Below are positions 1,987 to 2,275 of a DNA stretch of 64,000 nt, piece by piece. The first letter of the stretch is position 1. Every line of letters starts with the position of its first letter. This DNA comes from Anolis carolinensis (taxonomy: Eukaryota), in NCBI RefSeq assembly GCF_035594765.1, contig NC_085842.1:83738782-83802781 (forward strand), read 5' to 3'. Position numbers and translations under genes: made by a program. The notes beneath the pieces are model-generated. The model was not told the origin of the DNA. It saw only the letters and a program-made list of their open reading frames with translations, and did not search any database.

Positions 1987-2275
1987 GTAACACAATCTGA
2001 AGACAAGTGGGGGGCTATAATAGTTTGATTTCAAACTACACACTTAATGATTTTGTATTTTTATGGGGTGCCTCTTATCCTACATTATGTTGTGTGGTGC
2101 CAACAGTCAGTTTTTCCCAGACTCACATAGTGATGGTGAAGTAAAGCAGGTAAAATCTGCTGGTTCATGGTATTCTGTGTCTCCAGTACCTTCCTTCATG
2201 CCCTTTCTGCCTGCAGTTTTCTTCCTCCTGCTGCCACTACTTAGGCCAGTAGTTAGTGTGACAATAGAATGCCAG

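What the first reader, a model, noticed from the sequence alone, without database searches (positions are those of the whole stretch)
2260..2275. Host flank at the insertion point is identical over 16 nt to an internal pol segment
Seen: GACAATAGAATGCCAG at 2260-2275, ending exactly at the LTR and including the GCCAG TSD, recurs exactly at 5452-5467 inside pol. There it encodes part of the W-T-I-E-C-Q motif between RT and RNase H, so the internal copy looks native. The match extends no further on either side. A rough estimate with equal base frequencies (about 1e4 element positions, a few junction sides, over 4^16) gives odds near 1e-5, although the pattern was noticed after the fact. Possible explanations (all inference): homology-assisted target choice, a short templated patch copied from the element during gap repair primed on GCCAG, an assembly artefact, or chance.
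Basis: partly seen in the sequence, partly recalled or inferred. Interest (0 to 1): 0.7.

Follow-up and report, generated by a model that had tools for sequence, protein, structure and literature searches.

The report
Chance match beside a lizard retrotransposon
A jumping gene sits in a lizard intron right after 16 letters that also occur inside the jumping gene itself, but those letters were in the host DNA before it arrived and hundreds of its sister insertions show no such match, so this is most likely a coincidence.

Summary
The 16-nt identity is real (2260-2275 = 5452-5467). It ends at the 5' LTR of a young Ty3/Gypsy element (2276-7592, TSD GCCAG) in a TUSC2 intron. Empty-allele contigs from two same-species runs of two studies carry all 16 letters followed directly by the downstream flank, and a second species is nearly the same. 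A templated patch is therefore refuted. The family has at least 791 copies. At 439 other host junctions the longest junction-anchored match to the element is 11 nt; the mean is 6.62 against 6.62 in controls (p=0.70). No nesting into young sister copies was seen. Another host copy of the 16-mer has no insertion. The site fits the family's ordinary A(-3)/T(+3) preference. Chance odds are 2-4e-6 per junction and 0.4-0.9% family-wide. That is small, but the pattern was noticed after the fact in a very large scan. Verdict: ordinary integration plus coincidence (about 0.9); a rare homology-assisted route is not excluded (about 0.05). The insertion allele itself was not seen in reads. Side result: the family's TSDs are mostly 6 bp, mixed with 5 and 4. 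No earlier scan note covers this.

The parts
2260..2275 (+). Host intron 16-mer identical to pol 5452-5467; present in the empty allele
2271..2275 (+). Left copy of the 5-bp target-site duplication GCCAG
   Evidence: single copy in the empty allele
2276..2578 (+). 5' LTR, 303 nt, TGTCAG...CTGACA; differs from the 3' LTR at one position (LTR base 64)
2476..2486 (+). Putative self-primer, 11 nt, complementary to the PBS, about 25 nt after a TATA-like box at 2446-2453
2581..2591 (+). Primer-binding site of the self-priming (Tf1/sushi-like) type, not a tRNA-type PBS
2627..7243 (+). Single gag-pol reading frame (1538 aa from the ATG): gag, protease, RT, RNase H, integrase, Tf2-like SH3; no chromodomain hit
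5452..5467 (+). Internal copy of the 16-mer, coding (W)TIECQ at the start of the RNase H-like domain
7271..7284 (+). Polypurine tract
   Evidence: sequence
7290..7592 (+). 3' LTR, 303 nt
7593..7597 (+). Right copy of the TSD GCCAG
1866..1986 (+). TUSC2 coding exon upstream of the insertion
   Evidence: Pfam PF15000, E=3e-18
9171..9236 (+). Last TUSC2 coding exon, downstream of the insertion
   Evidence: Pfam PF15000, E=1.2e-6

Best explanation
The 16 letters are old host intron sequence that was there before the insertion, and a Ty3/Gypsy retrotransposon copy likely landed at their end by ordinary integrase-catalysed integration, so the identity with its own pol gene is most likely a coincidence. 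Shown: the 16-mer and one GCCAG lie in the empty allele; the element has normal ends and a perfect 5-bp duplication; sister insertions have no excess match. Inferred: integrase cut the two strands 5 bp apart at a site fitting the family's weak A(-3)/T(+3) preference, gap filling made the duplication, and base pairing with the element's DNA or RNA played no part.
For: (1) Contigs of runs X1 and X16 (same species, two studies) match 1750-2275 with no difference and continue straight into window 7598-7627. X10 (a second species) also runs to 2275 and continues into the downstream flank, 4 letters shorter. (2) At 439 other host junctions the anchored match to the element is 5-11 nt, mean 6.62 against 6.62 at 54,875 control positions, p=0.70; none reaches 12 nt, 0.5 expected. 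(3) Allowing mismatches, the focal 20-nt window scores 16 of 20, as do 2 of 439 junctions; 29 of 3,512 control windows score 16 or more. (4) Among 63 other junctions ending in CAG, the match to this same pol site falls off as chance predicts: 3 nt in 48, 4 in 12, 5 in 2, 6 in 1. (5) The 16-mer is expected 0.9-2.0 times by chance in this genome. A second host copy (L034) exists and has no insertion. (6) At least 791 copies offer 5 kb of near-perfect homology, yet no clean insertion into a young sister copy was among 484 termini; the two nested cases sit in diverged relatives (L109, L192). (7) The focal site has A at -3 and T at +3, like 25 and 28 of 41 five-bp sites and 85 and 90 of 119 six-bp sites.
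Against: The coincidence is still unlikely: 0.35-0.9% for this whole family, and 16 nt lies five letters beyond the longest other junction. Only 439 of at least about 1,600 junctions were examined, so a route acting at under 0.7% of junctions is not excluded. The focal TSD is 5 bp where the family mode is 6 bp. The 5-bp class has a slightly higher mean match (6.77, p=0.066). Copies with no TSD have 4 of 26 junctions with 9 nt or more against 1.3 expected (binomial p=0.036; one of five classes, post hoc; rank test p=0.65). No listed contig in the four runs bridges flank and LTR, so the filled allele rests on the assembly alone.
Confidence: 0.9

Rival explanations
1. Rare homology-assisted target capture: element cDNA or RNA pairs with 16 nt of host DNA and holds the integration complex there, so integrase cuts at the end of the match.
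For: The match ends exactly at the cut and predates the insertion. The family-wide chance is below 1%. The TSD length is non-modal. One older paper's title proposes that homology to LTR ends near the site lowers TSD fidelity (Moreau 2000, seen only as a reference in PMC2857682).
Against: No shift in 439 junctions, exact or with mismatches. No nesting into young sister copies, which would be the best targets. A second host 16-mer is unoccupied. The matched stretch lies 2-3 kb from either LTR end, in what would be double-stranded cDNA whose RNA template has already been degraded (established retroelement biology, recalled).
Confidence: 0.05
2. Two-step recombination: autointegration at the internal GCCAG makes two circles that enter the host site through 16-nt and 5-nt homologies and rebuild a full element with the same final sequence.
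For: It would give the observed sequence exactly (inference). Rearranged and tandem copies exist in the family (L106/L107, L117/L118, L110).
Against: It needs two ordered recombinations on very short homologies. No other copy in the genome has an LTR end joined at this pol position (1 match, the focal junction). Plain integration explains the ends and the TSD in one step.
Confidence: 0.01
3. Templated patch: the 11 nt left of GCCAG were copied from pol during gap repair.
For: Only the position of the match. Capture of retrotransposon cDNA at breaks is known (PMC4516963, search listing and start of abstract only).
Against: The 11 nt are present without change in empty-allele contigs of X1, X16 and X9, and at least 15 of the 16 letters are present in a second species.
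Confidence: 0.01
4. Assembly artefact: the element was placed here wrongly, or the junction was mis-built.
For: None of the listed pieces in four runs shows the filled junction (1,513 pieces and 36 loose ends were not displayed).
Against: A mis-join on the 16-mer would continue into pol, not into the first LTR base. Both flanks are adjacent in the empty allele with one GCCAG, as a true insertion requires. The 16-mer itself is confirmed by independent runs. Absence of a young insertion from other individuals is expected (inference).
Confidence: 0.03

Closest known systems
[quoted passage not shown]
   Same: About 5.3 kb; TGTCA...TGACA termini as in Tosmo/Tcry1; PBS complementary to the likely 5' end of the transcript, with a long hairpin between them; Tf2-like SH3 after integrase; single ORF as in Tf1/Tf2.
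   Different: No chromodomain hit in Pfam; TSD mostly 6 bp rather than the 5 bp reported for the fission-yeast elements; phylogeny not tested.
Ordinary integrase target-site selection with a weak symmetric consensus (XMRV, PMC2857682, passages read)
   Same: Weak base preference around the duplication, TG...CA ends, an occasional off-length TSD (1 of 15 XMRV sites had 5 bp instead of 4).
   Different: Here the off-length fraction is larger: 16 of the 75 unselected copies with a clear TSD are 4 or 5 bp.
Moreau et al. 2000, homology to LTR ends near avian retroviral integration sites (title only, in the reference list of PMC2857682)
   Same: Links host-element homology at a site with an off-length duplication; the focal TSD is non-modal.
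   Different: That title concerns LTR ends, not internal pol sequence. No significant link between TSD length and match length was found here.

Membership tests
Ty3/Gypsy LTR retrotransposon | Domain order gag-protease-RT-RNase H-integrase | tested here: met
   Pfam: gag 227-373, protease 492-595, RVT_1 708-867, RNase H 942-1073, integrase 1177-1349
Ty3/Gypsy LTR retrotransposon | Two LTRs with TG...CA ends, PBS, PPT and a short TSD | tested here: met
Tf1/sushi group | Self-priming PBS complementary to the transcript's 5' end, with flanking duplexes | tested here: met
   11-nt perfect complement, 2476-2486 with 2581-2591; fold z=-3.99, 0 of 200 shuffles as stable; the transcription start is inferred from the TATA-like box, not mapped
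Tf1/sushi group (chromovirus) | Chromodomain at the integrase C-terminus | tested here: not met
   No chromo family at E<=0.001; the ORF ends 8 residues after the SH3_Tf2-1 match
Tf1/sushi group | RT-integrase phylogeny inside the Tf1/sushi clade | not tested
   no tree was built
Homology- or guide-directed insertion system | Insertion sites as a class match the element or a guide it carries | tested here: not met
   439 junctions indistinguishable from controls
Templated insertion at a repair junction | Copied letters absent from the pre-insertion allele | tested here: not met
   all 16 letters are in the empty allele

The most novel reading that the evidence does not exclude
An LTR retrotransposon occasionally picks its target by base pairing between an internal stretch of its own genome and host DNA, with integrase cutting exactly at the end of the paired 16 nt. 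This would be a rare (under 0.7% of junctions), nucleic-acid-guided side route of an integrase thought to be blind to homology.
Probability: 0.05. Interest if true: 0.8.

Novelty: not a real feature. Interest (0 to 1): 0.1.

Why it matters
As a coincidence it matters little, beyond showing that odds of about 1e-5 per element are reachable when a family has about 800 copies and a scan reads very many windows. If the rare guided route were real, it would overturn the view that retroelement integrases ignore homology and would suggest programmable targeting. The side result may be more useful. A very young, high-copy Gypsy family whose TSDs are mostly 6 bp but often 5 or 4, with the same base preference at each cut, is a natural data set on how rigidly an integration complex fixes the spacing of its two cuts. 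Six-bp TSDs made up 0.4% of plant LTR elements in PMC6317226, where TSD length is described as characteristic of each family.

Tried and rejected
Templated patch: rejected by empty-allele contigs. A rearranged subfamily carrying this pol-LTR junction: rejected, the junction is unique in the genome. The other three non-standard hits of the 16-mer are an internally deleted copy (L033), a point-variant copy (L035) and a host site without insertion (L034). The first-pass statistic (210 junctions of 109 elements) gave the same null, but its controls included flanks from an old related element (L109); one search set element-derived flanks aside (43 of 484 termini, mostly normal PBS/PPT junctions). 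L174 and L184 looked like nested insertions but are internal deletions. A link between TSD length and match length: not significant. No relatives' genomes were available. Seven paper searches (titles and abstract starts) listed no report of flank-to-internal identity guiding LTR retrotransposon insertion and none on this family's TSD lengths; subscription journals and Repbase were not searched. Three look-ups of earlier scan notes found nothing on this element or this kind of match.

Full report
Observation. The 16-mer GACAATAGAATGCCAG lies at 2260-2275 and at 5452-5467 with no mismatch; shuffles of the window give 0.03 matches on average. It ends at the first base of a 303-nt LTR and includes the left copy of the duplication GCCAG, whose right copy follows the 3' LTR at 7593-7597. 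The element (2276-7592) has one long reading frame with gag, protease, RT, RNase H, integrase and a Tf2-like SH3 domain, in Ty3/Gypsy order. The internal copy codes (W)TIECQ at the first residues of the RNase H-like Pfam domain and is present in 168 of 173 near-full-length copies, so it is native to the element. The host gene is TUSC2; the element sits in the sense direction between two exons that match PF15000. Earlier scan notes call this genome green anole (not checked here).

Did the 16-mer predate the insertion? A run search listed 24 runs, 18 of which hold the flank in whole or part. Four were laid on 1750-2330. In X1 and X16 (same species, two studies; X1 is flagged as a possible source of this DNA, X16 is not) one contig matches 1750-2275 without a difference and continues with letters identical to window 7598-7627. 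That is the empty site, with one GCCAG and all 16 letters. In X9 a contig matches 2187-2275 without a difference and runs on for 378 unaligned letters that were not printed. In X10, a second species, the contig aligns to 2275 and continues into the downstream flank, 4 letters shorter. It has four substitutions, three listed outside the 16-mer and one not located, so at least 15 of 16 letters are shared. The 16-mer is thus old host sequence and a patch copied from pol is ruled out. No listed piece bridges flank and LTR in these runs (1,513 pieces and 36 loose ends were not shown), so the filled allele is known from the assembly only. A mis-join on the 16-mer would lead into pol and not into the LTR start, and the two flanks abut in the empty allele as a true insertion requires, so an artefact is unlikely.

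Is there a family-wide tendency? The family is large and young: 1,059 LTR candidates, 791 exact LTR-PBS junctions, median LTR-LTR difference 0 in the 4-, 5- and 6-bp TSD classes. I fetched 200 element-sized regions and used the search loci. The sample is not random: the first 100 places on the largest contig, plus junctions chosen by the two or three letters next to the LTR. Of 484 unique termini, 43 had element-derived flanks and were set aside and 2 are the focal ones, leaving 439. Their longest exact match to the element, anchored at the junction, was 5-11 nt, mean 6.62, against 6.62 at 54,875 offset positions in the same flanks (p=0.70). Two reached 11 nt (1.9 expected) and none 12 (0.5 expected). 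With mismatches allowed, the focal 20-nt window scores 16 of 20, as do 2 of 439 junctions; 29 of 3,512 controls score 16 or more. All 64 junctions of the genome that end in CAG before an exact LTR terminus were fetched. Among the 63 non-focal CAG junctions scored, identity to this pol site fell off as 48, 12, 2, 1 for 3, 4, 5, 6 nt. The pol-LTR junction itself is unique in the genome. The 16-mer is expected 0.9-2.0 times by chance, and one other host copy exists, without an insertion. If homology steered integration, the family's own copies would be the best targets. No clean insertion into a young copy was found; two copies sit in diverged relatives.

Results against the chance reading. The odds are small: 2.2-4.3e-6 per junction and 0.35-0.9% over 1,582-2,118 junctions, or about one case per 115,000-230,000 full-length elements. 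With none of 439 at 12 nt or more, a route acting at under 0.7% of junctions is not excluded. The focal TSD is 5 bp where the mode is 6 bp. The 5-bp class has a mean match of 6.77 (p=0.066), and copies without a TSD have 4 of 26 junctions at 9 nt or more against 1.3 expected (p=0.036, post hoc, one of five classes; rank test p=0.65). These hints are weak. The pattern was picked after the fact, from a scan of some 250,000 windows in which many kinds of coincidence could have been flagged (inference).

Mechanism. Shown: normal termini, a perfect duplication, a pre-existing target, and a site with A at -3 and T at +3 like most family sites. Inferred from established integrase chemistry (PMC2857682, passages): staggered joining of both cDNA ends, then gap filling. 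Base pairing with an internal stretch 2-3 kb from the ends has no known role (recalled; seven searches listed no such report). I put coincidence at 0.9, a rare homology-assisted route at 0.05, an assembly error in the insertion at 0.03, and recombination or templated repair at 0.01 each.

Relation to known kinds. The element meets the Ty3/Gypsy features. It primes like the Tf1/sushi group: the PBS is an 11-nt perfect complement of LTR bases 2476-2486, and the region folds far better than shuffles (the group's features from passages of 10.1101/2022.12.06.519325 and PMC6317226). It lacks a Pfam chromodomain and no tree was built, so it works like a Tf1/sushi element but is not filed as one. The nearest published idea on homology at integration sites is Moreau 2000, seen only as a title, which concerns LTR ends. 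Six-bp duplications are described as a beta-retrovirus hallmark in 10.64898/2026.06.24.734183 (passages) and made up 0.4% of plant LTR elements in PMC6317226. This family's mix (119 six-bp, 41 five-bp, 6 four-bp of 184) is therefore the more interesting by-product. Supplements of these papers were not read, and Repbase entries for lizard Gypsy families could already record the TSD length.

Verdict. Interest 0.1.

Noticed in passing
family-wide, loci L036-L265: TSD length is mixed: 6 bp in 119, 5 bp in 41, 4 bp in 6, none in 13, ambiguous in 5 of 184 paired copies; in the unselected chromosome-1 set 59, 14, 2, 8 and 3 of 86. A at -3 and T at +3 keep their place relative to each cut in both the 5- and 6-bp classes, which suggests variable spacing of the two cuts. 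Young and older copies show the same mix. Six bp is rare in the LTR retrotransposon survey read (PMC6317226, plants).
   Followed up: partly
window 4040-4041 and 7266-7267: A consensus-like splice donor at the end of gag and a polypyrimidine-AG acceptor just before the PPT, found in 182 and 162 of 200 fetched regions. A spliced gag-only RNA could set the Gag:Pol ratio in this single-ORF element. No RNA evidence was obtained.
   Followed up: partly
window 2476-2591: Self-priming PBS with a long predicted hairpin (z=-3.99) in an element with no chromodomain hit: Tf1/sushi-like priming without the chromovirus hallmark.
   Followed up: partly
window 2276-7592 within the TUSC2 intron 1987-9170: A young insertion in sense orientation in the last TUSC2 intron, apparently absent from the four runs laid. 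Its acceptor-like site and LTR could affect TUSC2 splicing in carriers (untested).
   Followed up: no
L106/L107 (C1:147.25 Mb) and L117/L118 (C1:187.2 Mb): Tandem LTR-internal-LTR-internal-LTR arrays with one TSD around the whole array; likely products of LTR-LTR recombination.
   Followed up: no
L110, L184, L174, L033, L069: Rearranged copies: L110 has a 3-nt-short 3' LTR end joined to pol; L184 has an internal deletion with a 30-nt piece copied from the LTR at the join; L174, L033 and L069 have internal deletions.
   Followed up: partly
L049, L052, L053, L058, L087, L099, L124, L128, L134, L182, L238, L243, L247: 13 of 184 paired copies have normal ends but no TSD; possibly deletions at integration or ectopic recombination between copies.
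   Followed up: no
run X10 (second species): The same LTR family is present at high depth in the second species, so it is shared between the two species.
   Followed up: no
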